Source: Planctomycetota bacterium (GTDB lineage: Bacteria > Planctomycetota > MHYJ01 > JACQXL01). Taken from it: a DNA stretch of 64,000 bases. The notes beneath the pieces were generated by a model. It worked only from the letters and a program-made list of their open reading frames with translations, was not told the DNA's origin and searched no databases. Both the position numbers and the translations under genes were made by a program. The stretch spans positions 66,891 through 130,890 of the forward strand of contig JACRIK010000018.1 in the NCBI GenBank assembly GCA_016235865.1, read 5' to 3'. Each line of letters opens with the position of its first letter. Position 1 is the stretch's first letter. This document shows positions 1-18,458 of this stretch, piece by piece.

Positions 1-390
1 GCCACGGAAGGCGTTTATCTCTGCGGCTTGGCGCATTCACCGAAGAATATAGATGAAAGTATTATTCAGGCCTGCGGCGCGGCTTCAAGGTCATCAACTA
101 TTTTAGGTAAGGATAGGATTGAACTTGATGCGATTGTCAGCGAGGTGGTTGACGAGAATTGCGATGGCTGCGCTTATTGCGTTGACCCCTGCCCGTACCA
201 TGCGCTGGCCTTGATTGAGTATGCCCGCGACGGGGCGATCAAGAAGACGATTGACCGTGATTTGGCGCTCTGCAAGGGATGCGGGGTCTGTCAGGCCACC
301 TGCCCCAAGGGTGGTATTGTGGTCAATAACTTTAAATTGCCGCAGATACAGGCGATGGTGGCCGCAGCATTAGAGTCGTCGACAACTTAA
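1..390 (+). CDS. hdrA: Heterodisulfide reductase subunit A (HdrA), C-terminal fragment with 2x[4Fe-4S] ferredoxin domain. The 5' end lies outside the window.
   Basis: The frame is open from base 1. It reads ATEGVYLCGLAHSPKNID...CDGCAYCVDPCPYHA...CKGCGVCQATCPKGG...QIQAMVAAAL, matching the HdrA C-terminal flavin-site loop and ferredoxin dicluster. It is immediately followed by mvhD. Confidence 0.6.
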   Translation, partial: ATEGVYLCGLAHSPKNIDESIIQACGAASRSSTILGKDRIELDAIVSEVVDENCDGCAYCVDPCPYHALALIEYARDGAIKKTIDRDLALCKGCGVCQATCPKGGIVVNNFKLPQIQAMVAAALESSTT

Positions 391-404
391 ATGAGGAGTA
401 GATT

Positions 405-857
405 ATGAGTGAGACACAAACTTCAACCGGGGAACAGACCGCGACTAATACATTTGAACCATTAATTATTGTTTACTGTTGTAACTGGTGTTCTTATGCC
501 GGCGCAGACTTGGCCGGGACATCACGTTTACAGTATCCGTCAAATATTCGCATTATCCGCGTAATGTGCTCAGGCATGGTTCATCCTAATTTAGTCGTGG
601 AGGCATTAACCAAAGGAGCTAATGGGGTTTTGATGTTGGGTTGCCATATCGGCGATTGCCATTATCTGGAAGGAAACTTAAAGGCCCAGGGGCGCATAGA
701 GGCCATCCAGCTTTTGCTGGATGATATGGGTGTGGAACGGGATCGGTTCCGGCTGGAATGGGTTTCGGCTTCGGAAGGCCCGCGCTTCGCCCAGGTTATC
801 AAGGATATGACAGAGCAGATAAAGAATCTTGGTCCCAGCTCGTTCAGGCAGTATTAG
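405..857 (+). CDS. mvhD: Methyl-viologen-reducing hydrogenase delta subunit (MvhD/FlpD-like)
   Basis: Contains the YCCNWCSYAGADLAG motif typical of MvhD. An SD (GAGGAG) precedes the ATG. It lies between hdrA and mvhGA. Confidence 0.8.
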   Translation: MSETQTSTGEQTATNTFEPLIIVYCCNWCSYAGADLAGTSRLQYPSNIRIIRVMCSGMVHPNLVVEALTKGANGVLMLGCHIGDCHYLEGNLKAQGRIEAIQLLLDDMGVERDRFRLEWVSASEGPRFAQVIKDMTEQIKNLGPSSFRQY

Positions 858-921
858 TTAGTTTAGTAGGAGCGCCCTATAGTAGGGCGTTGAGGCGGTG
901 GAGAGGGTAAAAGGAGTTAGT

Positions 922-1374
922 ATGAAGATAGACAATAACCTTCCACTATATTCTATTTCGGTTGTGGCCAAGCTCTGCTCGACTCCGATAAGGATGCTGC
1001 GAGAATATGAGAAACAGGGATTAATCAAACCGAAGAAGGTCAACCGGCGGCGCTTATTCACGGTTAACGAGGCGGGTTTTATCAAGGATATCAGATATTA
1101 TCTGGCCGAGAAAAGGATGACCATTAACGGGCTGAAGGAGTTTTATCTCAGGTCTTCTTGCTGGGAAATCAAGCAGTGCAACCGCCGGCAATGTCCGGCC
1201 TACGGTAAATTAGACAAGCAATGCTGGGAGGTAGTGACGCACCATAAAATATGCGACGGTAAGGCTTGTCCCTCTTGTCCGATTTTTATTATTAAGACGT
1301 CTTTATGTGGTAAGCAAAACAAGAAATACGAGAGCCACTTTGCCTACGAGGCGGGTGGTGTTAGAGCCAAATGA
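922..1374 (+). CDS. MerR-family HTH transcriptional regulator with a Cys-rich (9 Cys) C-terminal domain. The ORF track gives start 898; ATG 922 has the better SD.
   Basis: The N-terminus LYSISVVAKLCSTPIRMLREYEKQGLIKP is a MerR-type HTH. The C-terminus is CWEIKQCNRRQCPAYGKLDKQCWEV...CDGKACPSCPIF. AAGGAG lies 7 nt upstream of ATG 922. Confidence 0.6.
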   Translation: MKIDNNLPLYSISVVAKLCSTPIRMLREYEKQGLIKPKKVNRRRLFTVNEAGFIKDIRYYLAEKRMTINGLKEFYLRSSCWEIKQCNRRQCPAYGKLDKQCWEVVTHHKICDGKACPSCPIFIIKTSLCGKQNKKYESHFAYEAGGVRAK

Positions 1375-1379
1375 ATCAT

Positions 1380-1443
1380 CCCGATAAAAACTATCGGGAT
1401 AACTGGCTGTAAAGCTCCTTCGTCGCTAACAGCCAGTAAGGAG
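1380..1443 (+). repeat. Structured REP-like element copy C1: hairpin cccgatAAAAActatcggg, then ATAA, then stem ctggctgt...CTAAC...agccag, then TAAGGAG.
   Basis: Same architecture as the copies at 34147, 37895 and 39925. Its 3' end supplies the SD for ATG 1451. Confidence 0.6.
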
Positions 1444-1450
1444 TTAAAGT

Positions 1451-1645
1451 ATGCCAATAAATTACCGCGTTATCAGCAACAAGAAATATATGTGGGACGG
1501 CAAGGTCTATGACAACGAGGGTGATGCCCTTAATGCCGCATCTGGTTACAAGAAGGATAACTTTGACGTCCAATTAATCCAGGAGGAAGGCAAACATTAT
1601 ATTTATACTCGGCGTGTGGCTGCCGCGTCAACTACCGCGAGTTAA
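1451..1645 (+). CDS. Small hypothetical protein (64 aa) inside the mvh/hdr operon
   Basis: Strong SD TAAGGAG 7 nt upstream. No recognisable motifs. Confidence 0.4.
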   Translation: MPINYRVISNKKYMWDGKVYDNEGDALNAASGYKKDNFDVQLIQEEGKHYIYTRRVAAASTTAS

Positions 1646-1678
1646 AGAATAATATTATAAACCCGAAAGGAGGGAAAT

Positions 1679-2677
1679 ATGCCAGTAAGAGTGGCTGAAG
1701 AGTGGCTGAACATCTGTGGCGGATGTGAAGTTACTATTTTGGACATAGGCGAACCGCTCTTGGACCTTCTGCCCCAGTTGGAGTTCGTGCACATCCCGGT
1801 GCTGGCGGACAACAAATACTTCGGGCAGGTCGGCGAGAAGAGCGCTATGGAGATTCCCCAGGCAGATGTGGGAATCATCTCCGGCGGTATCCGCAATGAA
1901 AAGGAAAAGCATGTGGCTGAGGAAATGCGCAAGAAGTGCAAGACCATTGTTGCGCTCGGCTCCTGCGCCTGCTTTGGCGGAATTCCGGCTATGGCGAACA
2001 TGTGGAATCTGCAGGGCCTTTATGACAAGGTCTATCGTGACAGCGTCACGACAGAGAAGGGCGAGACCCCCAAGGAAAACCTACCGCCACTCCTTGACAG
2101 GGTATATGCTTTGGACGAGGTGATTAAGGTTGATGTGGCCATCCCCGGCTGCCCGACGTCTCCGGACTGGGTGGTCGGCGCATTGACTTCTCTTCTGACC
2201 GGCAAGCCTTTTGTCATGCCGGAAAAGAGCGTCTGTGATGAATGCCCGACCAAGCGGGAGAAGAAAGCCGCCGGCGGCCAGATTAAGAGACCTTTGGAAT
2301 CGATTACCTTTAAGCAGGGTGAGCCATGGGAAAATACCCGTTGCTTTATGGAACAGGGATTCCTTTGTCTGGGTCCTGTGACCAAAGCCGGATGCGCCGG
2401 TGGGACCACCGAGCCAGGTGAATCAAAAGTGCCACGTTGCATCAAGGGCTATATGCCTTGCCGCGGCTGTTTTGGGCCAATCCGCAAAGGCGCCAATCCA
2501 TTGGTTGATATGATGACGGCGATTTCCTCAATCGGACTAGATGCCAAACAAGTTGCAGACCGCAGGGCTTTGCTTAACAGGTATATCGGCGGTCAGGGAC
2601 GCTTGAAGCCCATACCTGAACCAAAGGGTGGAGCCCAAGCACAGAAAGGAGGCGCAGAATGCCAGGCAAGACCATAA
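1679..2677 (+). CDS. mvhG: [NiFe] hydrogenase small subunit (F420-non-reducing hydrogenase MvhG-type)
   Basis: N-terminal ICGGCEV...ILD and multiple Fe-S Cys clusters. SD AAGGAGGG precedes the ATG. It overlaps the start of the large-subunit gene. Confidence 0.85.
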   Translation: MPVRVAEEWLNICGGCEVTILDIGEPLLDLLPQLEFVHIPVLADNKYFGQVGEKSAMEIPQADVGIISGGIRNEKEKHVAEEMRKKCKTIVALGSCACFGGIPAMANMWNLQGLYDKVYRDSVTTEKGETPKENLPPLLDRVYALDEVIKVDVAIPGCPTSPDWVVGALTSLLTGKPFVMPEKSVCDECPTKREKKAAGGQIKRPLESITFKQGEPWENTRCFMEQGFLCLGPVTKAGCAGGTTEPGESKVPRCIKGYMPCRGCFGPIRKGANPLVDMMTAISSIGLDAKQVADRRALLNRYIGGQGRLKPIPEPKGGAQAQKGGAECQARP

Positions 2678-4107
2678 CTATTGCGCCGGTCAGCCGAATT
2701 GAAGGTCACGCCAAGATAACCATTCAACTGGATGACGGCGGCAATGTCCAAGATACATGGGTAAATGTCGTGGAACTCAGAGGTTTCGAGAAGTTCTGCC
2801 TGGGCCGGCCTGTGGAAGAGATGCCTCGTATCGTCACGAGCATCTGCGGTGTTTGTCCCTGGTCGCATCATCTGGCGGCAGCCAAGGCCTGCGATGCGGT
2901 TTTCGGGGTGGCACCGACTCCGACCGGGGCAAAACTGAGAGACCTCTGCAACAGTATTGCCTATACCGAGGAGCATATCCTGCATTTCTTCTTCCTGGGC
3001 GGTCCGGATTTCGTAATGGGACCGGATGCCGATCCGTCAGTAAGAAATGTCATTGGGATTGCCAAGGCCAATCCTGAGATAGGCAAGAAGGTGGTTCGTA
3101 ACAGGCACCTGGGCGCCAGGATGCTTAACATCGTTTCCGGTAAGTCCATTCATCCGGTCACAGCGGTTCCGGGCGGATTCTCCAAGCCGCTTACCGAGGA
3201 TGAACGCAAAAAGGTCCTGCCCATGGCTGAAGAGGTATTGGAGTTTGCTAAGTTCTCCATCAAGTTTGCTAAGGAGAGCATCTTCCCCAAATACCTTGAT
3301 GTTGTAAAGACCTTAGCGGTCATTAAGACTGGATTTATGGGAACGGTGGACAAGGATGGAGCGCTTAATTGCTATGACGGTAAAATCAGATTGATGAAGC
3401 CGGATGGCACATACACCGATTTTACCTATGACAAGTACACGGATTACATCGAGGAGAAAATCCTTAACTGGTCATATCTCAAGTTCCCGTATGCCAAGAC
3501 CTGGGGTGAGGGCTTCTCTATGGATTTGAACAATCCTAAGGGAATCTACCGGACCAATACATTGGCCCGCATTAACGTGGCGGAAAAAATGGCTACCCCG
3601 CTGGCGCAGAAGGAATTTGAGGAATTCCGCAAGAACTTCGGCCGACCGGCCCAATTGACCCTGCTTTATCACTGGGCCAGATTGATTGAACTCCTGTATC
3701 ATGCGGAACATGCGGTGGAACTCCTGAACGATAAGGATATCACAGGCAAGGAGACCCGGGTGAAGGTAACGCCCAGGGCCGCACGTGGAGTAGGTTGCGT
3801 GGAAGCGCCCCGCGGGACGCTGATTCACGACTATACCACCGATGCGGACGGTCTCTTGACTAATTGCAATCTGATAGTTGGCACCACCCACAACAATGCC
3901 GCGATTAATATGTCCGTCAAGCAGGCGGCCCAACTCCTGATTAAAGGCGGAAAATATGATCAGGGTATGATGAATAAGGTGGAGATGGCTATCAGGGCTT
4001 ATGACCCCTGTCTGTCTTGCGCGACGCATAATCTTGACGGGACTTTACCTGTTAAGGTTACCATTATGAATGCCAAGGGCAAAGTGGTTGATACACTGGT
4101 AAACTAA
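2659..4107 (+). CDS. mvhA: [NiFe] hydrogenase large subunit (MvhA-type)
   Basis: N-terminal RIEGHAKI plus CGVCPWSHH (L1/L2 Ni-binding motifs). C-terminal DPCLSCATH with cleavage-site His. Confidence 0.9.
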   Translation: MPGKTITIAPVSRIEGHAKITIQLDDGGNVQDTWVNVVELRGFEKFCLGRPVEEMPRIVTSICGVCPWSHHLAAAKACDAVFGVAPTPTGAKLRDLCNSIAYTEEHILHFFFLGGPDFVMGPDADPSVRNVIGIAKANPEIGKKVVRNRHLGARMLNIVSGKSIHPVTAVPGGFSKPLTEDERKKVLPMAEEVLEFAKFSIKFAKESIFPKYLDVVKTLAVIKTGFMGTVDKDGALNCYDGKIRLMKPDGTYTDFTYDKYTDYIEEKILNWSYLKFPYAKTWGEGFSMDLNNPKGIYRTNTLARINVAEKMATPLAQKEFEEFRKNFGRPAQLTLLYHWARLIELLYHAEHAVELLNDKDITGKETRVKVTPRAARGVGCVEAPRGTLIHDYTTDADGLLTNCNLIVGTTHNNAAINMSVKQAAQLLIKGGKYDQGMMNKVEMAIRAYDPCLSCATHNLDGTLPVKVTIMNAKGKVVDTLVN

Positions 4108-4160
4108 AAAGGACAAAAATAGGGGCGTCCCGGCTAATGGGGCGCCCCTATATACCCATT

Positions 4161-4712
4161 ATGGAAACATCTGATTATTATAGTAAGAATATATTGGTGC
4201 TGGGTTGCGGCAATATCCTTTACGGCGATGACGGATTCGGGCCGGATGTGGCCGATTATATTTCAAGCAATTATAAGATACCGGAAAATGCCGCGGTGGT
4301 AAACCTGGGTTTATCCACCCGGGGATTTATATTTGATATTTTATTGAGCGAACAGAGGCCAAAATGTATTGTGGTGGTCGATGCGGTTACCTGTGAAGGT
4401 AAGAAGCCGGGCGAGATATTCGAAATTCCGCTGGATAATCTCTGCAAGGAAAAGGTAGACGATTTCTCGTTCCACCAGGGACCGACATCAAATCTGCTTA
4501 GGGAATTAAGGGATATCTGCGGTGTTGGGATAGTGATTCTGGCCTGCCAGCCGCAGGGGATTCCCAAGGAAATGACCAGGGGGCTGTCAGAGCCGCTTAA
4601 GAAATCGGTTATTAATATGAGCGAGCTTATTTATAATAGATATTTGAATCATGAAATAAACAAGGAGAATTTGAAATATGCCAACCCAAGCAACTGTAAT
4701 GCCCGATGCTAA
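4161..4712 (+). CDS. Hydrogenase maturation endopeptidase (HycI/HoxM family). An alternative in-frame start exists at 4137.
   Basis: ILVLGCGNILYGDDGFGPDV is the maturation-protease signature. It lies directly downstream of mvhA. Confidence 0.7.
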   Translation: METSDYYSKNILVLGCGNILYGDDGFGPDVADYISSNYKIPENAAVVNLGLSTRGFIFDILLSEQRPKCIVVVDAVTCEGKKPGEIFEIPLDNLCKEKVDDFSFHQGPTSNLLRELRDICGVGIVILACQPQGIPKEMTRGLSEPLKKSVINMSELIYNRYLNHEINKENLKYANPSNCNARC

Positions 4713-5244
4713 GTTCCTTAAACAGATGGACGATAAAATCAAGGTAAATGTCAATCTGTGTTTCCAGTGCCGGAAGTGTTCGGCCGGATGCCCGATGGCT
4801 TATGCCATGGACTATACTCCGGCTCAGCTTATCCACGCCATTCGCCTGGGATTGAAGGATATTGTCATTAACAGCAAGACTATGTGGATGTGCTCTTCCT
4901 GCCAGACCTGCACGACCCGCTGCCCGCAGGAGGTTGATATTGCCAGGGTGATGGATACGGTCAAGATCCTTGCGGTGGCCGAGGGGATTAAACCCCCAGT
5001 TTCCAGCGTGCATACGTTCAATAAGGCGGCCTTGCGCAACATCAAATGGCTGGGCCGGATGTATGAACTGGGCATGATTGGCGACCTGAAGATGCGCACC
5101 TTTGAGTTCTTTAAGGATATGGGCTTGGGCATGAAGATGTTTATGAAGGGCAAACTGAAGATTATTCCTTCGGTTTCCCCGGGCCGGACCCTGACCACCT
5201 GGAAGATATTCTCCAGGTCTGCCAAGAAAGATAGGAGTAACTAA
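4678..5244 (+). CDS. hdrC: Heterodisulfide reductase subunit C
   Basis: Two CxxCxxCxxxCP motifs (CFQCRKCSAGCPM, CSSCQTCTTRCPQ). SD AAGGAG precedes the start. Followed by hdrB. Confidence 0.8.
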   Translation: MPTQATVMPDAKFLKQMDDKIKVNVNLCFQCRKCSAGCPMAYAMDYTPAQLIHAIRLGLKDIVINSKTMWMCSSCQTCTTRCPQEVDIARVMDTVKILAVAEGIKPPVSSVHTFNKAALRNIKWLGRMYELGMIGDLKMRTFEFFKDMGLGMKMFMKGKLKIIPSVSPGRTLTTWKIFSRSAKKDRSN

Positions 5245-6104
5245 TGAATACAAAATATGCTTATTATCCGGGCTGTTCGCTGCATTCCACCGGCGCTGAA
5301 TATGATGTGTCATTCAAGAAGGTGGCCGGGAAGTTGGGAGTAGAACTGGCCGAGGTTCCGGGCTGGGTTTGCTGCGGGACTTCACCGGCCCATAGCGCTT
5401 CACATCTCCTGTCCATTGCCTTGCCGGTTAAGAATCTTTCCCTGGTTGAGACCATGGCTAAGGACGTGGTGGTTCCCTGCGCGGCCTGCTATTCCAGGTT
5501 TAAGTTCGCCACCTATGAAATGGGGCACGACAATAAATTGGCCGAGGATGTCAAGGAGGTTATCGGTTCATCATTCCAGAATAAAGTCAAGGTCTTACAT
5601 CCGCTGGAAATATTCGCTCAGATACCTCCGGACGCATTAAAAGCTCAGGTTAAAGAAAACCATAAGGACAAGGCGTTAAAGGTAGTGTGTTATTACGGCT
5701 GTCTGCTGACCAGGCCGCCCAAGGTAATGCAGTTTGACGATGTGGAATACCCGATGACCATGGACAAGGTTCTGGAAAATACCGGTTATCAAATCCTGGA
5801 CTGGTCTTATAAGACCGATTGTTGCGGCGCCAGCTTTGCCCTGAGCGAAACCGATGCGGTTCTGACCCTGACCCAGAAGATTCTCAAGAACGCCAAAGAG
5901 GTCGGGGCTGATGCCATTGCCGTGGCCTGTCCGCTCTGCCACGCCAATCTGGACACCAGGCAGACGGATATTAATGCCAAATACAATACCGATTACAACA
6001 TCCCGATATATTACTTTACCCAACTGATGGGTCTGGCATTCGGTTATAGTCCCAAGGAAATGGGAGTAAATAAGCATTTGACAGAAGCGACAATGAACGT
6101 TTAG
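5244..6104 (+). CDS. hdrB: Heterodisulfide reductase subunit B (two CCG domains)
   Basis: N-terminal YYPGCSLHST, with CCG motifs (WVCCGTS, TDCCGAS). Confidence 0.85.
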   Translation: MNTKYAYYPGCSLHSTGAEYDVSFKKVAGKLGVELAEVPGWVCCGTSPAHSASHLLSIALPVKNLSLVETMAKDVVVPCAACYSRFKFATYEMGHDNKLAEDVKEVIGSSFQNKVKVLHPLEIFAQIPPDALKAQVKENHKDKALKVVCYYGCLLTRPPKVMQFDDVEYPMTMDKVLENTGYQILDWSYKTDCCGASFALSETDAVLTLTQKILKNAKEVGADAIAVACPLCHANLDTRQTDINAKYNTDYNIPIYYFTQLMGLAFGYSPKEMGVNKHLTEATMNV

Positions 6105-6119
6105 GCAAAGGAGGCTATT

Positions 6120-6368
6120 GTGCACGAATGGGGATTGACGGCTGATGTGGTGGAAGAGGTTAAGAAACAAGCCGCTAAGAATGATATTGTTAAGGTAACC
6201 AAGGTTCAGATTGGCCTGGGGAAAAAGGCCGACCTGAGCGAAAGAGCATTCCGGACCTGCTTTAAGGTCCTGGCCAAGGAAACTATTATGGAAAAGGCGC
6301 GGCTGGCTTTTACCAAAAGACCGGACCATATTATCATCGTGAATACTATCGAGGGTAAGCAAGAGTGA
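6120..6368 (+). CDS. HypA-like protein, N-terminal Ni-binding domain only (82 aa, lacks the Zn-finger). GTG start.
   Basis: GTG at 6120 with AAGGAGG 6 nt upstream. Begins MHE... and contains QAAKNDIVKVTKV, like HypA MHE...QAAKHGAKRVT. There are no CxxC pairs. The stop overlaps the next gene's start (GTGA). Confidence 0.55.
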   Translation: MHEWGLTADVVEEVKKQAAKNDIVKVTKVQIGLGKKADLSERAFRTCFKVLAKETIMEKARLAFTKRPDHIIIVNTIEGKQE

Positions 6369-7744
6369 AGACGGCACAATCCATTATTAATGAAGAAGCT
6401 TTAAGCAGGATGCTCTCTGAAAGCCAGGATTCTGCGCCGGCGGCCATCCGCCGTATCATAGCCAAGGCCCGCCTTAAAAAGGGATTAACCGTAGAAGAAG
6501 TCGCCTACCTGGTTAATATTAAGGATAAATCGTTATTAAAGGAACTCTTTGAGACGGCCGCCCTGATTAAGCAGGAGATTTACGGTGAGCGGTTGGTTTT
6601 CTTTGCGCCATTATACGTCTCTGATTACTGCGTCAATGACTGCGCATATTGCAATTTCCATACCCGGAATAAGGAATTATCGCGCCGGCGGCTGACCCTT
6701 GACGAAGTAGCCCAGCAGGCCGAATTTATCATCAATCACGGCCATAAACGGATTCTTCTTGAATTAGGCGAAGACCCGGCCCATAATGAGATTGATTATG
6801 TGGTTGACGTGATTGACCGGATATACTCGGTCCGGACTCCCAAGGGCAATATCCGGCGTGTCAATGTCAATATCGCGGCCACTACCGTGGATGATTACCG
6901 GAAACTAAAGTCCGCCAAAATCGGCACCTATCAGCTCTTCCAGGAAACCTACCACCGACCGACCTATGAGAAACTGCACCAAGGCCCCAAGGCCGATTAT
7001 GACCGCCAGATAACCGCCCATACCCGGGCCTTCGAGGCCGGGGTTGACGATGTGGGCCTGGGTGTTCTCTTCGGTCTTTATGACTGGCGTTTTGAGACGC
7101 TGGGCCTGGTGGCGCACGCCTTGTATCTGGATCAGACCTACGGAGTAGGTCCGCATACTATTTCCGTGCCGAGAATCTGCCCGGCCAGCAGCGTGGATTA
7201 TAAACCGGAATACCCGGTCTCTGACAATGATTTCCTGAAGCTTATTGCTATATTGCGTCTGGCCGTGCCCTATACTGGGATGATTATCTCCACCCGTGAA
7301 AGTGCTGAGATACGAAAGATTGCTTTTAAGATAGGCATTTCCCAGGCCAGCGCCGGCTCGGTCACCACCACCGGCGGCTACGGCAAGGCATCACTGCAGG
7401 CCCAGTTCACGGTCCACGACAACCGTTCTTTGGAAGAGGTTATCCGTGAAGTGATTAAGGACAAGATGATACCCAGTTTCTGCACGGCCTGTTACCGGAG
7501 CGGCCGGACCGGCGAACGGTTTATGAAACTATCCAAGCCCGGTGAAATCCACAAATTCTGCCGGCCTAATGCGCTGCTGACCTTTGCCGAATACCTCTAT
7601 GATTGCACCACCAACGGCATTACGGAATCAGGAATGCAGCTCATCGTGGATTATCTGGAGCAGATAGAAGACGAGCCGATTCGCGCCGAAACCCGCCGGC
7701 GCCTGGCCGATATCAAGAACGGCAAACGCGATTTGTATTTTTAG
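6365..7744 (+). CDS. hydG: HydG-type radical SAM tyrosine lyase ([FeFe]-hydrogenase maturase family)
   Basis: CVNDCAYC radical-SAM motif. IRRVNVNIAATTVDDYRKLKSAKIGTYQLFQETYH is HydG-like. C-terminal CTAC-x22-C (CX2CX22C) auxiliary-cluster motif is present, which ThiH lacks. Confidence 0.8.
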   Translation: MKTAQSIINEEALSRMLSESQDSAPAAIRRIIAKARLKKGLTVEEVAYLVNIKDKSLLKELFETAALIKQEIYGERLVFFAPLYVSDYCVNDCAYCNFHTRNKELSRRRLTLDEVAQQAEFIINHGHKRILLELGEDPAHNEIDYVVDVIDRIYSVRTPKGNIRRVNVNIAATTVDDYRKLKSAKIGTYQLFQETYHRPTYEKLHQGPKADYDRQITAHTRAFEAGVDDVGLGVLFGLYDWRFETLGLVAHALYLDQTYGVGPHTISVPRICPASSVDYKPEYPVSDNDFLKLIAILRLAVPYTGMIISTRESAEIRKIAFKIGISQASAGSVTTTGGYGKASLQAQFTVHDNRSLEEVIREVIKDKMIPSFCTACYRSGRTGERFMKLSKPGEIHKFCRPNALLTFAEYLYDCTTNGITESGMQLIVDYLEQIEDEPIRAETRRRLADIKNGKRDLYF

Positions 7745-8045
7745 TCGCGGTTTGAACGCAATTAATTACTGCGACTTATCCTGAGCAAAGCGAATGGTTA
7801 GGGCGAATTACAGCCCCTTATCCTGCATCAGCGGGGTCCCGATGCATATCGGGGTTAAGCCATTTAGAATTCTTTCAGTATAAACCCCACAAAGGGATAA
7901 ACCCTAAATTCCACCTTGGTTCCTGTCATAATCCGAGCATAATTATCATGTCTTTTTTATATAACTCATTATGCTATAGAATATTGTATAAAATATTACT
8001 CTGCAAAACTAGGGGGAGGGGGTATGGTGGGGGGTAGTACCCTTG

Positions 8046-8320
8046 GCGCTACGGAGGTACGTTATCGGCCCGACGGAGGTACGTCACCGGCACTACCGAG
8101 GTGCATTCCAGGCGCTACAGAGGCATATTCTAGGCGCTACAAAGGTATATTCCAAGCGCTACAAAGGTACATTCCAGGCGCTACAAAGGTATGCTCCAGG
8201 CGCTACGAAGGTATGCTTCTGGCGCTACGAAGGTATGCTTCTGGCGCTACAGAGGTATGCTTCCGGCACTACGGAGGTATGCTTCCGGCGCTACGGAGGC
8301 ACGTCACCGGCACTATCATC
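8046..8320. repeat. Tandem array, 22-bp unit (consensus gcgctacaaaggtatgcttccg), about 12 copies
   Basis: The period can be read directly. Units diverge at the edges. There are no spacers, so it is not CRISPR-like. Confidence 0.85.
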
Positions 8321-15734: not shown

Positions 15735-17888
15735 TTATTCATCACGGATATCCAGGGTGGTTCTGAGGGTGGCGATGGCGGTTATGATCTCTCCACGCAT
15801 GGATTCATTCGTAACCTTGCCCAGCAGTGTTCTGAGGGTGAATATATCCTCTTTTTCGCCGATATTGGCCAGGATTCTGACCGCGCTGAGCACCAAATCC
15901 GGCTCGTTGCTGTCCAATAGGCCCCTGATAACCGGCAGGGAGCGCTGGTTTTTAATGCCTTGGAGCGAGCGGGTAATCTGGTCTGCCAGATTGCGGTAGA
16001 TTTGATCCTGGGTTCTTTTCCAGCGGTTAATCAGGTCATAATAGCCGCTGACCAGGAGTTCCACTGAAAAGCCGGAAAAGGCGTCCGAAGAGGTAATTCG
16101 GGCTATCTTCTGGATGGCCTGAAGGGTTAGGTCGCTATTGCCCTGGGCAATGATATTTTTGAGAAGTTCAAATGCCTGGGTATCTCCCAAAATAACGGCG
16201 GTTTCCAGGCAGGCCAGTTTGACCTTGGGGTCAGTGCTGGCCAGGCCGATATCAACCAGGCGGTTGACCAGGCGCTGTTTGCCCTGGGCGTTCTCCAGTG
16301 ACATAATCGTTTTTATGGTCGCCAGCTTTACCAGGTCATTCTTGTCTTCGGATAAGGCATAGAGCCGCACGAGTGTCTTTTCACGGTCGGATTTGTCTCC
16401 CAAGCGGACAATGGCCCGGCTGGCAGATAATATTATTCGGTAATCGGTCTCGTTCTTCAGTAGCTCATAAAGAAGCGGCAGCGCCGAGTTATCCGAGATG
16501 CCGGCTAGGGATTCCAGGGCCGCGTTAAAGAGGGGGTTGTCTTTACTCTCGCCCTTTTTTATGATATTGACCAGAATCTTTATCAGTTCGGCGGTATTGG
16601 CCGCGCCGATGGATTTTTTATCCTGAAGTGCGGTCAGGCACAGTTTCCTGGTATCGGTGTCCGTATTTGCGAAGATATCCAGCAAGATTATAGCGCCGCG
16701 GGATGGGTTAATCCCCACGAGCGTCTCGGCCGCGGCTGAACGGTATTCTATATAATAGCCGGATGATTTTATGATCGCCTCAAGTTCCGGATACAGTTTT
16801 TCAGAGCCGACCCGGCTTAAAACCCGGCCCAGATACACGGAGTTATATTTTCCTGATGGCGTGCTTTTAAGGATTTCCATCAAAGAAGGGATGGTTTCTT
16901 CGCCCATTCCGGTCAGGATTGCCTCAGCCGCCAATGCTTTGTCAAAGTCATTACGTTCGCTGAACTGTTTGAGCAGCTCCAGGAGATGTTTAGCTCGGTC
17001 GGCCATATTATCGCCGACCGGCAAATCAAATCCGATTGGTTTTATGCTGATGCTGAAGGCAACCCGTTCACCGGCTTTTACCGGATGTACGGAATTTTTC
17101 CACTCCACCTGCACGGTTCCTTCATCAACGCTGACCGTAGTGATTTTGATACCTTCGGCGCTTATTACGTTGTCATCAATCTGTTTCCGGACCGGCGCAT
17201 TGTATTTCAGGTGATTAACCCTGAATCTGGTTCCGACCACCTTGATTCGGCCTGATTCGGTCTCGACATATAACGTTTTAGGATTCTTGGCCACATCAAG
17301 GTAAATAGAACCTTGGTGCAGGAGGATATTGCCCCGGCTCTTCTCGGACGGTTGGGTGATATTCAGGGCGGTTTGCCGGTCCATCTCTATTTTGGTCCGG
17401 TCAGCCAGGGATAACACGGCCTTGGTTCCGGCGGTTTGCATTACCGTATCGCTTTTGATGTAATATGTCCCTTTTGTGGTTGCCTCCTGAGATTGGTTGT
17501 CTTGCCGGACTGATACTGTTCCGCTATCAAGGGAAATCGGCTGGATTGTTTCAGGTGGTTTAGGGCTGGCCAGCCAGATAACTACTGCTAATAATATTAC
17601 CGCGGCTGAAGCAAATGCATACCTGAGTCGATAAAACAGGTTTACTTCCGGGTACTCATGGACGCCTAATTCATCTATTTTCTCGTTGACGGCTTCTATA
17701 AAGTTATCTTTGGGCGTGATATCGGCCCATTTATGAAGTATTGCCGAGACCTTCTTTGACTGGATAAGAACATTCTTGCATTCCGGGCAACTTTCAAGAT
17801 GATTGGTAACTGAACGCATTTCTTCCTCAGGCAACAATCCCTTTATATAAGCATCTGTGGCCAATCTGATTTTATCGCAATTATTCAT
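15735..17888 (-). CDS. Anti-sigma factor: zf-HC2 N-terminus, one TM, FecR-like segment and a long periplasmic HEAT-repeat domain
   Basis: CxxC...HLESCPECK zinc-finger and TM ASAAVILLAVVIWLA. Lies immediately downstream of the ECF sigma gene. Confidence 0.65.
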   Translation of the reverse strand: MNNCDKIRLATDAYIKGLLPEEEMRSVTNHLESCPECKNVLIQSKKVSAILHKWADITPKDNFIEAVNEKIDELGVHEYPEVNLFYRLRYAFASAAVILLAVVIWLASPKPPETIQPISLDSGTVSVRQDNQSQEATTKGTYYIKSDTVMQTAGTKAVLSLADRTKIEMDRQTALNITQPSEKSRGNILLHQGSIYLDVAKNPKTLYVETESGRIKVVGTRFRVNHLKYNAPVRKQIDDNVISAEGIKITTVSVDEGTVQVEWKNSVHPVKAGERVAFSISIKPIGFDLPVGDNMADRAKHLLELLKQFSERNDFDKALAAEAILTGMGEETIPSLMEILKSTPSGKYNSVYLGRVLSRVGSEKLYPELEAIIKSSGYYIEYRSAAAETLVGINPSRGAIILLDIFANTDTDTRKLCLTALQDKKSIGAANTAELIKILVNIIKKGESKDNPLFNAALESLAGISDNSALPLLYELLKNETDYRIILSASRAIVRLGDKSDREKTLVRLYALSEDKNDLVKLATIKTIMSLENAQGKQRLVNRLVDIGLASTDPKVKLACLETAVILGDTQAFELLKNIIAQGNSDLTLQAIQKIARITSSDAFSGFSVELLVSGYYDLINRWKRTQDQIYRNLADQITRSLQGIKNQRSLPVIRGLLDSNEPDLVLSAVRILANIGEKEDIFTLRTLLGKVTNESMRGEIITAIATLRTTLDIRDE

Positions 17889-17891
17889 ATT

Positions 17892-18458
17892 CTAATTCAC
17901 GTATCCTTTAAGCATCTCAAAGAGCATTTGTTTGCCTCTGAATATCCATGATTTTACCGTGTTCTCATTGGTTTTGAGGACATCGGCGATTTCCTTATAA
18001 GGCAAATCATTATAAACCGCCATTATGATGGCCTCACGCTGGTCTTCAGGCAGTGACTGGACTGCCCGGGACACCTTTTCCCGTATCTCCTTATCTGCCA
18101 GTGCATCTACCGGCGAGGCGTCCCGATTCACATCGGGACGGACCAAATCGGTCAGCTCCACATTCCGGGGGCGCCGGGCTTTATCCCGGAGCTCGTTCTT
18201 GCAGAGATTGACCGCAATCGTATATAACCAGGTGGTAAATTTATACCGCTGGTTATAGTGTTTGATATTAAGATAACAGCGGACAAAGACCTTTTGGGCC
18301 AATTCCTCCGACCTCGAGGCATCGTTGATATTGCGGTAAACAAAATTAACGATGGCCTTATGGTACTTTTCTATTAGGGCATTAAATGCTTTACGGTCTC
18401 CTTTCTGCGCCTGTTTAACCAGCGCCGAATCAGGAAGTTGTTGGCCTGTTTCTTTCAT
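17892..18458 (-). CDS. ECF (sigma-70 family, group 4) RNA polymerase sigma factor
   Basis: Region 2 (FNALIEKYHKAIVNFVYR) and region 4 (YKEIADVLKTNENTVKSWIFRGKQML). Confidence 0.85.
   Translation of the reverse strand: MKETGQQLPDSALVKQAQKGDRKAFNALIEKYHKAIVNFVYRNINDASRSEELAQKVFVRCYLNIKHYNQRYKFTTWLYTIAVNLCKNELRDKARRPRNVELTDLVRPDVNRDASPVDALADKEIREKVSRAVQSLPEDQREAIIMAVYNDLPYKEIADVLKTNENTVKSWIFRGKQMLFEMLKGYVN

What the first reader, a model, noticed from the sequence alone, without database searches (positions are those of the whole stretch)
898..1645. Cys-rich MerR-family regulator and an SD-driven small ORF inserted between mvhD and mvhG
Seen in sequence. The usually contiguous hdrA-mvhD-mvhGA block is interrupted by a MerR HTH protein. 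Its C-terminal 70 aa hold 9 cysteines (C-x5-C-x4-C ... C ... C-x4-C-x2-C-x2-C), suggesting an Fe-S or metal site. This is followed by a REP-like structured element whose 3' end forms the SD of a 64-aa ORF. Inference: a redox-, H2- or metal-responsive regulator embedded in the bifurcating hydrogenase operon. The small protein could be a regulator partner or an assembly factor.
Basis: partly seen in the sequence, partly recalled or inferred. Interest (0 to 1): 0.55.

Follow-up and report, generated by a model that had tools for sequence, protein, structure and literature searches.

The report
Cysteine-sensor regulator inserted into hydrogenase operon
A small DNA-binding regulator with an uncharacterised cysteine-rich sensor domain was recently inserted into a hydrogenase/heterodisulfide-reductase operon, next to a tiny conserved gene that belongs to the hydrogenase cluster and not to the regulator.

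Summary

**Regulator (window 922-1374, ATG start rather than GTG 898).** It encodes a 150-aa protein under strong purifying selection. The N-terminus is a MerR-type winged helix-turn-helix closest to GlnR/TnrA. The C-terminus is a shortened "two-CW" domain (NCBIfam NF045718). Six cysteines are conserved in at least 94% of 200 related domain copies; this protein also has the frequent seventh.

**Sensor domain.** The same domain sits in histidine kinases, diguanylate cyclases and chemoreceptors, so it is a sensory input module. I found no structure, cofactor or paper for it.

**Where the gene sits.** Only a shallow Planctomycetota clade (at least 78% identity) carries it between mvhD and mvhG. 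More distant relatives lie next to formate dehydrogenase, hydrogenase-maturation genes, DsrE/SQR-like/rhodanese sulfur genes, or unrelated genes.

**64-aa ORF (1451-1645).** It is not the regulator's partner. It belongs to a family of at least 417 small proteins. It lies between mvhD and mvhG in five loci with no MerR gene, one of them only 45% identical.

**Hairpins (1378-1437).** They are real but single-copy in the window and lineage-specific, so not REP-like.

**Verdict.** This is a new variant of a known kind of one-component regulator. Its signal and target are inferred, not shown.

The parts
1..390 (+). 3' end of hdrA (C-terminal 4Fe-4S ferredoxin domain)
   Evidence: Pfam Fer4_7 and other Fer4 models. 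94% identical to the end of the 1044-aa HdrA-like gene of L001.
405..857 (+). mvhD (FlpD family)
   Evidence: Pfam FlpD, E 6.2e-54, full length.
871..891 (+). 9-bp stem-loop in the mvhD-merR spacer (AGCGCCCTA-TAG-TAGGGCGTT), no T-tract
   Evidence: Fold; the whole spacer gives only z = -1.95. A similar ACGCC..GGCGT hairpin is present in L064, L065 and L066 but weak in L001. No terminator-like site.
922..1374 (+). 150-aa regulator gene: GlnR/TnrA-like MerR HTH plus two-CW Cys-rich domain (Shine-Dalgarno AAGGAG at 911-916)
   Evidence: dN/dS is 0.03-0.08 against L001, L064, L065 and L011.
949..1140 (+). Winged helix-turn-helix (aa 10-73)
   Evidence: Pfam MerR_1 and MerR above cutoff. PDB profile search finds GlnR at E 1.9e-13 and TnrA at 4e-6. 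AF2 pLDDT is 83-91 here. Foldseek top hits are GlnR-DNA complexes.
1156..1305 (+). Two-CW-type Cys-rich sensor domain (aa 79-128): C80-W, C86, C91-PAY, C101-W, C111, C116, C119-P
   Evidence: hhalign against two-CW segments of signalling proteins gives probability 99.4%, E 3e-21.
1378..1400 (+). Intercistronic stem-loop 1 (ATCCCGATA-AAAAC-TATCGGGAT)
   Evidence: In L001 the stem keeps pairing through one compensatory change and G-U pairs. Absent in L064 and L065.
1402..1437 (+). Intercistronic stem-loop 2 (ACTGGCTGT-N18-ACAGCCAGT)
   Evidence: L001 and L056 carry a compensatory T:A to A:T swap. Absent in L064 and L065.
1438..1443 (+). Shine-Dalgarno AAGGAG of the 64-aa gene, 7 nt before the ATG
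   Evidence: Sequence. The AGGAG core is conserved in all five aligned relatives, with or without the hairpins.
1451..1645 (+). 64-aa conserved small protein, an ancestral member of the mvhD-X-mvhG cluster
   Evidence: dN/dS 0.08-0.09. AF2 beta-beta-alpha-beta-beta model, pLDDT 80.
1679..2677 (+). mvhG-like [NiFe]-hydrogenase small subunit
   Evidence: Pfam Oxidored_q6, E 1.5e-31.
2659..4107 (+). mvhA-like [NiFe]-hydrogenase large subunit
   Evidence: Pfam NiFeSe_Hases. The L001 orthologue also hits HoxH.
4137..4712 (+). HycI-type hydrogenase maturation protease
   Evidence: Pfam HycI, E 3.8e-17.
4678..6104 (+). hdrC-like (4678-5244) and hdrB-like (CCG domain, 5244-6104) genes
   Evidence: ORFs. 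The L001 orthologues hit Fer4_8/Fer4_17 and CCG and are 94-95% identical.

Best explanation
**Regulator (922-1374).** It encodes a one-component transcription factor. Residues 8-78 form a minimal MerR-type winged HTH of the GlnR/TnrA/HspR kind, without the long MerR coiled coil. Residues 79-128 form a shortened two-CW domain. This is a cysteine-rich sensory module also used as an input domain by histidine kinases, diguanylate cyclases and chemoreceptors.

**Origin.** The gene entered the gap between mvhD and a pre-existing 64-aa gene once, in a shallow Planctomycetota clade. The operon is hdrA-mvhD-X-mvhG-mvhA-hycI-hdrC-hdrB. The regulator is most likely transcribed with the operon.

**Inferred mechanism.** The six or seven cysteines hold a metal or Fe-S centre, or act as reactive thiols. 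The redox or ligation state of that centre would control dimerisation and DNA binding of the GlnR-like HTH. This would tie expression of redox-enzyme genes, most plausibly the surrounding hdr/mvh operon itself, to the cell's redox, thiol or metal status.

**64-aa gene X (1451-1645).** It is not linked to the regulator. It is a conserved small beta-beta-alpha-beta-beta protein that travels with mvhD and mvhG. It is most likely an accessory subunit or assembly factor of this Mvh-type hydrogenase.

**Stem-loops (1378-1437).** They are a later, lineage-specific RNA-level insertion. They probably affect mRNA stability or processing between merR and X.

**Shown versus inferred.** Domain identities, conservation, insertion history and gene linkage are shown. 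Cofactor, signal, target promoter and the role of X are inferred.
For: **Domain identities**
- HTH: Pfam MerR_1 and MerR above cutoff. The nearest solved relatives are GlnR (E 1.9e-13) and TnrA. Foldseek top hits are GlnR-DNA complexes, 32-36% identity, TM 0.74-0.84 normalised to the target.
- The AF2 model has only a 10-residue helix (68-77) where MerR proteins have the coiled coil.
- Six Cys are invariant in 25 homologues and at least 94% conserved over 200 domain copies.
- The C-terminal profile finds 159 proteins at E <= 1e-3. They include histidine kinases, GGDEF, GGDEF-EAL and MCP proteins.
- P0093 scores 57.5 bits on NF045718 (cutoff 35) at the matched segment. hhalign gives 99.4%, E 3e-21. 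20 of 21 compared segments hit NF045718.

**Selection and insertion history**
- Purifying selection: dN/dS is 0.03-0.08 for merR.
- MerR-bearing loci are the closest to the window (MvhD 90-93% identical). MerR-less loci are more distant (71-87%).
- The mvhD-merR spacer is homologous in all five bearers.
- Same strand, 64-nt and 76-nt gaps, no terminator-like site and no more promoter-like sites than in shuffles.

**Redox-related neighbourhoods of relatives**
- FdhE/FdhD operon: L011, L016, L017.
- HypC-radical SAM: L022.
- Cytochrome b-Fer4-MvhD fusion: L023.
- ApbE/FMN_bind: L013.
- DsrE, DrsE_2, SQR-like or rhodanese genes across several phyla: L008, L027, L030, L033, L034, L035, L036, L041.

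**Gene X**
- It lies between mvhD and mvhG without merR in L053, L055, L058, L059 and L067.
- At least 417 homologues.
- It is a frameshifted remnant after the relocated merR in L011.
Against: - No operator was found. No palindrome is shared upstream of 41 family members, and there is no TnrA/GlnR-type box in the operon.
- The TGTGA-N6-TCACA dyads at the hdrA promoters of relatives L001 and L015 are CRP/FNR-like. A near-copy also occurs upstream of hdrA in L053, which has no embedded merR. They may belong to another regulator.
- The hdrA promoter lies outside the window.
- About half of the family's loci have no obvious redox neighbour, and I computed no background rate.
- The gaps in this operon are repeatedly invaded by unrelated small genes, so the position could be incidental.
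- The Cys domain was modelled poorly (pLDDT 43-67), so cofactor geometry could not be examined.
- The window protein itself scores only 13 bits on NF045718 (cutoff 35).
- No literature or structure exists for the domain.
Confidence: 0.6

Rival explanations
1. Passenger gene. The two-CW MerR regulator controls some other regulon. It sits in the mvhD-X gap only because this operon's intergenic gaps tolerate insertions, and it has no regulatory tie to hdr/mvh.
For: - Unrelated insertions occur in the same gaps: 23S-rRNA-IVP-like genes between hdrA and mvhD and between mvhD and X in L061, and one after hdrB in L001.
- L015 has about 280 nt of GC-rich palindromic filler between mvhD and merR.
- Family members lie at many unrelated loci.
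- No operator was found in the operon.
- The dyad at the hdrA promoter also occurs in the merR-less locus L053.
Against: - The gene has been kept in place under strong purifying selection across a clade whose synonymous sites are near saturation (pS 0.67-0.75).
- Sister copies sit beside other H2- or formate-enzyme clusters: Fdh in L011 and L016, hypC-radical SAM in L022. Purely random placement does not predict this.
- It has no promoter of its own, so its expression depends on the operon.
Confidence: 0.28
2. Structural zinc domain. The six cysteines bind Zn (for example two Zn sites or a Zn2Cys6-like cluster) only to fold or dimerise the protein. The actual signal arrives through a protein partner, as glutamine synthetase does for GlnR/TnrA or DnaK for HspR.
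For: - The HTH is closest to GlnR/TnrA and HspR, which are controlled by protein partners.
- The normal MerR dimerisation helix is missing, so another dimerisation device is needed.
- Six Cys with no match to a standard Fe-S motif or Pfam Fer4 model.
Against: - The same domain is a recurrent, often tandem, N-terminal or C-terminal module of histidine kinases, GGDEF proteins and MCPs, and also occurs alone. This is typical of signal-input domains, not of dimerisation scaffolds.
- Both halves end in Cys-Pro, as Fe-S ligand motifs often do; this point rests on my own knowledge, not on a test.
- No partner gene is conserved next to it.
Confidence: 0.2
3. First reader's version for the small ORF. 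The 64-aa protein is a dedicated partner (co-regulator, anti-regulator or chaperone) of the MerR protein, and the pair forms a two-gene module.
For: - The two genes are adjacent in the window, L001, L064 and L065.
- A piece of the small ORF travelled with merR to the Fdh locus L011.
Against: - The small gene sits between mvhD and mvhG without any merR in L053, L055, L058, L059 and L067, down to 45% identity.
- At least 417 homologues, against about 77 MerR fusions among the proteins examined.
- The copy that travelled with merR is frameshifted and truncated.
- None of the distant MerR-two-CW loci has it.
Confidence: 0.03

Closest known systems
GlnR/TnrA (minimal MerR-family regulators of Bacillus nitrogen control; PDB 4r4e, 7tea, 7tec, 4r22)
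   Same: Best sequence and fold match for residues 2-78 (E 1.9e-13; Foldseek TM 0.74-0.84 normalised to the target). Short protein with a winged HTH, no long coiled coil, and a C-terminal segment as the regulatory part.
   Different: The C-terminal glutamine-synthetase-binding tail is replaced by a 50-residue Cys-rich two-CW domain. No TGTNA-N7-TNACA site in the operon. No link to nitrogen genes.
NCBIfam NF045718, two-CW domain (named by NCBI; I found no experimental paper)
   Same: Same motif order, CW-x4-C-x4-CPAY-x7-CW ... C-x2-C. Profile-profile probability 99.4%. The profile retrieves bona fide members that pass the NF045718 cutoff.
   Different: The MerR version lacks about 8 residues between the second CW and the CxxC. 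It scores only 13 bits against a cutoff of 35. It is fused to a DNA-binding domain instead of kinase, GGDEF or MCP outputs.
SoxR ([2Fe-2S] redox-sensing MerR-family activator)
   Same: A MerR-type HTH followed by a C-terminal cysteine cluster; redox sensing by a metal centre is the working model here. One paralogue (L013) lies next to ApbE/FMN_bind genes. From my own knowledge, this recalls the Rsx/ApbE system that reduces SoxR.
   Different: The SoxR motif CX2CXCX5C is absent. SoxR has the long coiled coil and 4 Cys. TIGR01950 matches only the HTH, weakly (best E 4e-4 in 13 of 25 members).
HspR (MerR-family heat-shock repressor)
   Same: Best NCBIfam hit for the HTH: all 25 family members match, best E 2.4e-15.
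   Different: The score is far below the cutoff (29.3 against 105 bits). No dnaK context and a different C-terminus.
Mvh-Hdr (MvhAGD-HdrABC) electron-bifurcating hydrogenase gene clusters
   Same: hdrA, mvhD, mvhG, mvhA, hycI, hdrC and hdrB are all present and co-oriented.
   Different: Two extra genes lie between mvhD and mvhG. One is the conserved 64-aa gene, present in every related locus examined. The other is the regulator, found only in a shallow clade. To my knowledge, neither is part of the described archaeal mvhDGAB or MvhAGD-HdrABC complex.

Membership tests
MerR family (Pfam PF13411 / PF00376) | N-terminal winged HTH matching the family models above the gathering score | tested here: met
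   MerR_1 scores 34.4 bits (cutoff 21.6) over aa 10-73. MerR scores 34.1 bits (cutoff 28.2).
MerR family (canonical metal or drug sensors such as CueR, SoxR, BmrR) | Long antiparallel coiled-coil dimerisation helix after the HTH | tested here: not met
   The AF2 model shows only helices 48-63 and 68-77 before the Cys domain. The best structural matches are GlnR/TnrA, which lack it. Alignments to CueR, CadR and SoxR have rmsd of 8-19 A.
MerR family (canonical) | Palindromic operator inside a promoter with a 19-20 bp spacer, usually next to or divergent from the regulator gene | tested here: inconclusive
   No shared palindrome upstream of 41 family members. No more promoter-like sites in 300-2000 than in shuffles. 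The hdrA promoter is outside the window.
GlnR/TnrA subfamily | HTH similarity to GlnR/TnrA | tested here: met
   E 1.9e-13 to GlnR 7tec and 4e-6 to TnrA. Foldseek top five hits are GlnR-DNA complexes.
GlnR/TnrA subfamily | C-terminal glutamine-synthetase-binding tail and TGTNA-N7-TNACA operator | tested here: not met
   The C-terminus is a two-CW domain. No such site in window 1-6100 or in the hdr/mvh loci. The NCBIfam TnrA model scores 12.4 bits against a cutoff of 140.
two-CW domain (NCBIfam NF045718) | Score at or above the curated cutoff (35 bits) | tested here: not met
   13 bits, E 0.1, for the window protein. 9 of 25 family members give weak hits, best E 0.0043.
two-CW domain (NCBIfam NF045718) | Two Cys-Trp dipeptides and the conserved Cys set, in order | tested here: met
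   C80-W81, C86, C91-P-A-Y, C101-W102, C111, C116 and C119. The same columns are 94-100% conserved over 200 domains.
two-CW domain (NCBIfam NF045718) | Profile-level homology to members that pass the cutoff | tested here: met
   The A3 profile finds P0093 at E 1e-7, and P0093 scores 57.5 bits on NF045718 at the same segment. hhalign of A3 against A10 gives 99.4%, E 3e-21. 20 of 21 A10 segments hit NF045718.
SoxR-type [2Fe-2S] MerR regulators | CX2CXCX5C cluster motif near the C-terminus | tested here: not met
   The Cys spacing is C-x5-C-x4-C-x9-C-x9-C-x4-C-x2-C.
HspR | NCBIfam equivalog score at or above the cutoff | tested here: not met
   29.3 bits against 105.
Fe-S or metal-binding sensor (functional class) | Bound cofactor | not testable with these tools
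   The AF2 confidence in the domain is 43-67. No PDB relative. Protein chemistry is needed.
REP / repetitive extragenic palindrome | Many dispersed copies of the same palindrome in the genome | tested here: not met
   Each hairpin occurs once in the 64-kb window and is absent from close relatives. The whole genome is not available.
Mvh-type (MvhD/G/A) hydrogenase cluster | FlpD, Oxidored_q6 small subunit, NiFe large subunit and maturation protease, co-oriented with hdrA/B/C | tested here: met

The most novel reading that the evidence does not exclude
The two-CW domain is an unrecognised class of cysteine-based redox sensor, built on an Fe-S cluster or on thiol/persulfide chemistry, and used across many phyla. 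In this operon it gives an electron-bifurcating Mvh-Hdr hydrogenase direct transcriptional feedback from the thiol/disulfide or low-potential redox pool. The recurrence of DsrE, SQR-like and rhodanese neighbours in distant relatives would then mean that the family senses reactive sulfur or disulfide stress. In addition, the 64-aa protein would be a previously unnoticed subunit or dedicated assembly factor of bacterial Mvh-type hydrogenases.
Probability: 0.25. Interest if true: 0.7.

Novelty: new variant of a known kind. Interest (0 to 1): 0.45.

Why it matters
- How bacteria regulate Mvh-Hdr-type electron-bifurcating hydrogenases is, to my knowledge, poorly understood, and my literature searches found nothing on it for this kind of cluster.
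- The two-CW domain is common in signalling proteins, but I found no cofactor, ligand, structure or paper for it. A 150-aa, two-domain regulator locked inside a defined redox operon is about the simplest system in which to find out what the domain senses. Its relatives beside formate dehydrogenase and sulfur-transfer genes offer comparisons.
- Separately, a 60-70-aa protein lies between mvhD and mvhG in every related locus examined, and its family has hundreds of homologues. It is a concrete candidate for a missing component of these hydrogenases, easily lost in annotation because of its size.

Tried and rejected
- **Operator search.** I enumerated inverted repeats (5-6-nt arms, 0-16-nt spacers) in the 250 nt upstream of 41 non-redundant family members. 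Nothing was shared beyond close relatives.
- **TnrA/GlnR-type boxes.** TGTNA-N7-TNACA gives none in the hdr/mvh loci and 4 hits in about 0.5 Mb of loci, no more than I estimate chance would give. One perfect 6-5-6 palindrome lies 33 nt upstream of merR in L023, but it is a single case.
- **TGTGA-N6-TCACA dyads.** They sit just downstream of the hdrA promoters in L001 and L015. They look CRP/FNR-like, and a near-copy occurs in the merR-less locus L053. I did not assign them to this regulator.
- **Rfam.** A scan of 1-8000 at E <= 1 found no RNA family for the hairpins.
- **Structure of the Cys domain.** AF2 with 25 sequences gave pLDDT 43-67 there, so I attempted no fold comparison of the domain. 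The PDB profile search found nothing.
- **Literature.** Searches for two-CW, NF045718, LIC12097, and MerR with Hdr/Mvh or with Fe-S found nothing relevant.
- **REP or MITE idea for the hairpins.** Rejected: single copy and lineage-specific.
- **Hairpin 1 as a DNA operator.** Considered unlikely. In L001 the stem is kept through G-U pairs, which work only at the RNA level on the sense strand, and the element is absent in L064 and L065.
Full report
**1. What is in the sequence**

Window 1-6104 holds one co-oriented gene row:
- the 3' end of hdrA (1-390, Fer4 models)
- mvhD (405-857, FlpD, E 6e-54)
- a MerR-type ORF
- a 64-aa ORF (1451-1645)
- mvhG (1679-2677, Oxidored_q6)
- mvhA (2659-4107, NiFeSe_Hases)
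- a HycI protease gene (4137-4712)
- hdrC-like (4678-5244) and hdrB-like (5244-6104) genes

The ORF listing extends the MerR ORF to GTG 898. Homologues start MKIDNN, and an AAGGAG lies at 911-916, so ATG 922 is the likely start.

The protein has nine cysteines, at positions 19, 80, 86, 91, 101, 111, 116, 119 and 129. Eight lie in the last 71 residues.

The 76-nt gap before the small ORF folds into two 9-bp stem-loops, 1378-1400 and 1402-1437. The free energy is -29.9 kcal/mol, z = -5.2, and none of 200 shuffles folds as well. The Shine-Dalgarno sequence AAGGAG (1438-1443) starts right after the second stem.

No terminator-like site was found in 300-2000, and promoter-like sites were no more frequent than in shuffles. 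Rfam has nothing for this region.

**2. The regulator is a real, conserved gene**

A search of 5.8 billion proteins gave 46 homologues in MAGs of Planctomycetota, Elusimicrobia and Nitrospinae. In 25 of them, at 38-88% identity, C80, C86, C91, C101, C116 and C119 are invariant. So are P92, A93, W102 and P120; W81 and Y94 are nearly invariant.

Against four relatives, non-synonymous differences are 0.06-0.16 per site and synonymous ones 0.67-0.75. That gives dN/dS of 0.03-0.08, similar to mvhD.

**3. The two domains**

*DNA-binding domain.* It passes the Pfam MerR_1 and MerR cutoffs. Its nearest solved relatives are GlnR (E 1.9e-13) and TnrA. Foldseek with the AF2 model (pLDDT 83-91 in this part) ranks GlnR-DNA complexes first. 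NCBIfam's HspR model is the best hit there but falls far below its cutoff. The model has no long coiled coil. This is therefore a minimal MerR-type HTH, like GlnR/TnrA/HspR, and not a CueR/SoxR-type protein.

*C-terminal domain.* It has no Pfam model and no relative in the PDB.
- A 59-column profile of it was run against 1.84 billion representative proteins. It found 159 proteins at E <= 1e-3.
- I pooled these with the close homologues and sorted the 192 proteins. There were 77 MerR fusions, 74 short stand-alone proteins, 26 multidomain proteins and 15 others.
- The ten multidomain proteins I scanned against Pfam are histidine kinases (P0087, P0105, P0139, P0181), GGDEF proteins (P0089, P0093, P0116), a GGDEF-EAL protein (P0135) and chemoreceptors (P0106, P0134); several carry the domain in tandem.
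- P0093 scores 57.5 bits on NCBIfam NF045718, the "two-CW domain" (cutoff 35), at exactly the matched segment.
- A profile-profile comparison of the MerR C-termini with the segments from signalling proteins gives 99.4% probability, E 3e-21, over 51 columns. The MerR form has an 8-residue deletion. 20 of the 21 segments hit NF045718.
- Over 200 domain copies, the six cysteines are 94-100% conserved. A seventh, C111 here, is present in about half.

The window protein alone reaches only 13 bits on NF045718. It is therefore a divergent relative and not a formal member by score. I found no paper on the domain.

**4. Where the gene sits in relatives**

*Inside the hdr/mvh row.* The arrangement hdrA-mvhD-merR-X-mvhG is present in L001-L004 (89% identity), L064 (78%) and L065 (81%). 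L015 (83%) and L066 (85%) show it as far as their contigs reach.

*Other loci:*
- At 69-71% identity the gene follows a molybdopterin oxidoreductase/NrfD/FdhE/FdhD operon (L011, L016; also L017).
- At 55% it follows a HypC-radical SAM-BATS fusion (L022).
- At 56-61% it sits beside a 297-317-aa protein with no Pfam match (L005, L019) or after ApbE/FMN_bind genes (L013).
- In a deltaproteobacterial MAG it precedes a cytochrome b-Fer4-MvhD fusion (L023).
- In Nitrospinota, Spirochaetia, Calditrichia and Bacteroidota MAGs the neighbours include DsrE, DrsE_2, an SQR-like flavoprotein and rhodanese (L008, L027, L030, L033-L036, L041).
- Other loci show nothing redox-related (L014, L037-L040 and others).

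Two MAGs carry two paralogues each. The family is therefore not tied to Mvh-Hdr. Many members do sit beside redox or sulfur enzymes, but I computed no background rate, so this remains a lead and not a result.

**5. The insertion**

Loci with the regulator are the closest to the window: MvhD 90-93% and MvhG 96-97% identical. Loci without it are more distant: MvhD 71-87%. The mvhD-merR spacer is alignable in all five bearers. The simplest reading is one gain in a shallow clade.

The same operon gaps hold other insertions elsewhere:
- 23S-rRNA-IVP-like genes in L061 and L001
- about 280 nt of GC-rich palindromes in L015

This keeps the "passenger" reading alive.

**6. The small ORF**

It has 30 close homologues and at least 417 at profile level. 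All 120 hits listed are 48-78 aa and none has a Pfam domain. K11, K12, W15, D16, Y20, Y33, F38, Y52, R54 and R55 are invariant down to 39% identity. dN/dS is about 0.09.

It lies between mvhD and mvhG with no MerR gene in L053, L055, L058, L059 and L067. L067 is only 45% identical and follows a different, 1077-aa HdrA-like gene. After the relocated merR of L011 only a frameshifted fragment remains.

The gene therefore belongs to the hydrogenase cluster, not to the regulator. AF2 gives a beta-beta-alpha-beta-beta fold (pLDDT 80). Nothing in the PDB matches it significantly. I infer an accessory subunit or an assembly factor of the Mvh module. This rests on linkage alone.

**7. The hairpins**

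They are present in the window, L001 and L056. One compensatory swap occurs in each stem, and L001 has G-U pairs that work only in sense-strand RNA. They are absent from L064 and L065, where the merR stop lies about 15 nt from the ATG of X. Each occurs once in the window.

They are a young, lineage-specific intercistronic RNA structure. They are not a REP family and not an essential part of the system.

**8. Mechanism and its limits**

By analogy with GlnR/TnrA, the C-terminal part controls dimerisation and DNA binding; this step rests on established knowledge of that subfamily. I therefore propose that the state of the cysteine centre gates DNA binding. Whether the centre is an Fe-S cluster, a bound metal or reactive thiols is unknown.

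The regulator is probably made from the operon's own transcript and feeds back on it.

I could not find an operator. The CRP/FNR-like dyads at the hdrA promoters of L001 and L015 may belong to another factor, because L053, which has no embedded merR, has a similar site.

Cofactor, signal and target are all inferences.

**9. Verdict**

- The regulator is a new variant of a known kind: a MerR/GlnR-like HTH fused to an uncharacterised but catalogued sensor domain.
- Its position inside an Mvh-Hdr operon is recent and narrow.
- The more general by-product is the conserved small gene between mvhD and mvhG.

Noticed in passing
window 6120-6368 (+): An 82-aa HypA-like ORF starts MHE, the nickel-binding N-terminal motif. 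It seems too short to hold the usual CxxC...CxxC zinc domain. The same 82-aa form is present in L001 13634-13882, where it hits Pfam HypA.
   Followed up: partly
window 6365-7744 (+); L055 7568-8944; L022 78-1250: A radical SAM + BATS protein (BioB/HydE-like) directly follows hypA in this [NiFe]-hydrogenase cluster, and again in L055. In L022 it is fused to HypC and sits just upstream of a 55%-identical MerR-two-CW paralogue. It may be an unusual hydrogenase maturation factor.
   Followed up: partly
window 8045-8315: A tandem array of a 22-nt unit, about 12 copies at 79% matches, lies in the roughly 940-nt gap between the radical SAM gene and the next gene.
   Followed up: no
L001 3985-4000 and 4158-4173; L015 494-509; L053 913-928: TGTGA-N6-TCACA dyads (CRP/FNR-like) lie just downstream of TTGAC(T/A)-N16-TAATAT promoter-like sites upstream of hdrA in the closest relatives. 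L053, which has no embedded MerR, has TGTGATAGAAATAACA between hdrB and hdrA. This candidate operator for the operon lies outside the window.
   Followed up: partly
L061 666-1025 and 1651-2001; L001 13223-13579; L015 5727-6000: The intergenic gaps of this operon are repeatedly invaded. L061 and L001 carry 23S-rRNA-intervening-sequence-like four-helix genes. L015 carries about 280 nt of GC-rich nested palindromes between mvhD and merR.
   Followed up: partly
L011 6533-6700 (also L012, L062, L063): A frameshifted remnant of the 64-aa gene follows the merR copy that sits after the FdhE/FdhD operon. This shows that merR and the start of the small gene were moved together from an mvh locus.
   Followed up: yes
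L067 1-2157: In a distant relative, the HdrA-like/mvhD/X/mvhG/mvhA row is preceded by CBS-HATPase_c, DRTGG, PHP and HATPase_c genes. This looks like a different putative regulatory module attached to the same kind of hydrogenase cluster.
   Followed up: no
window 15735-18458 (-): An ECF sigma factor gene (17892-18458) is followed by a 717-aa zf-HC2/FecR/HEAT-repeat anti-sigma-like protein gene (15735-17888). It appears unrelated to the finding.
   Followed up: no
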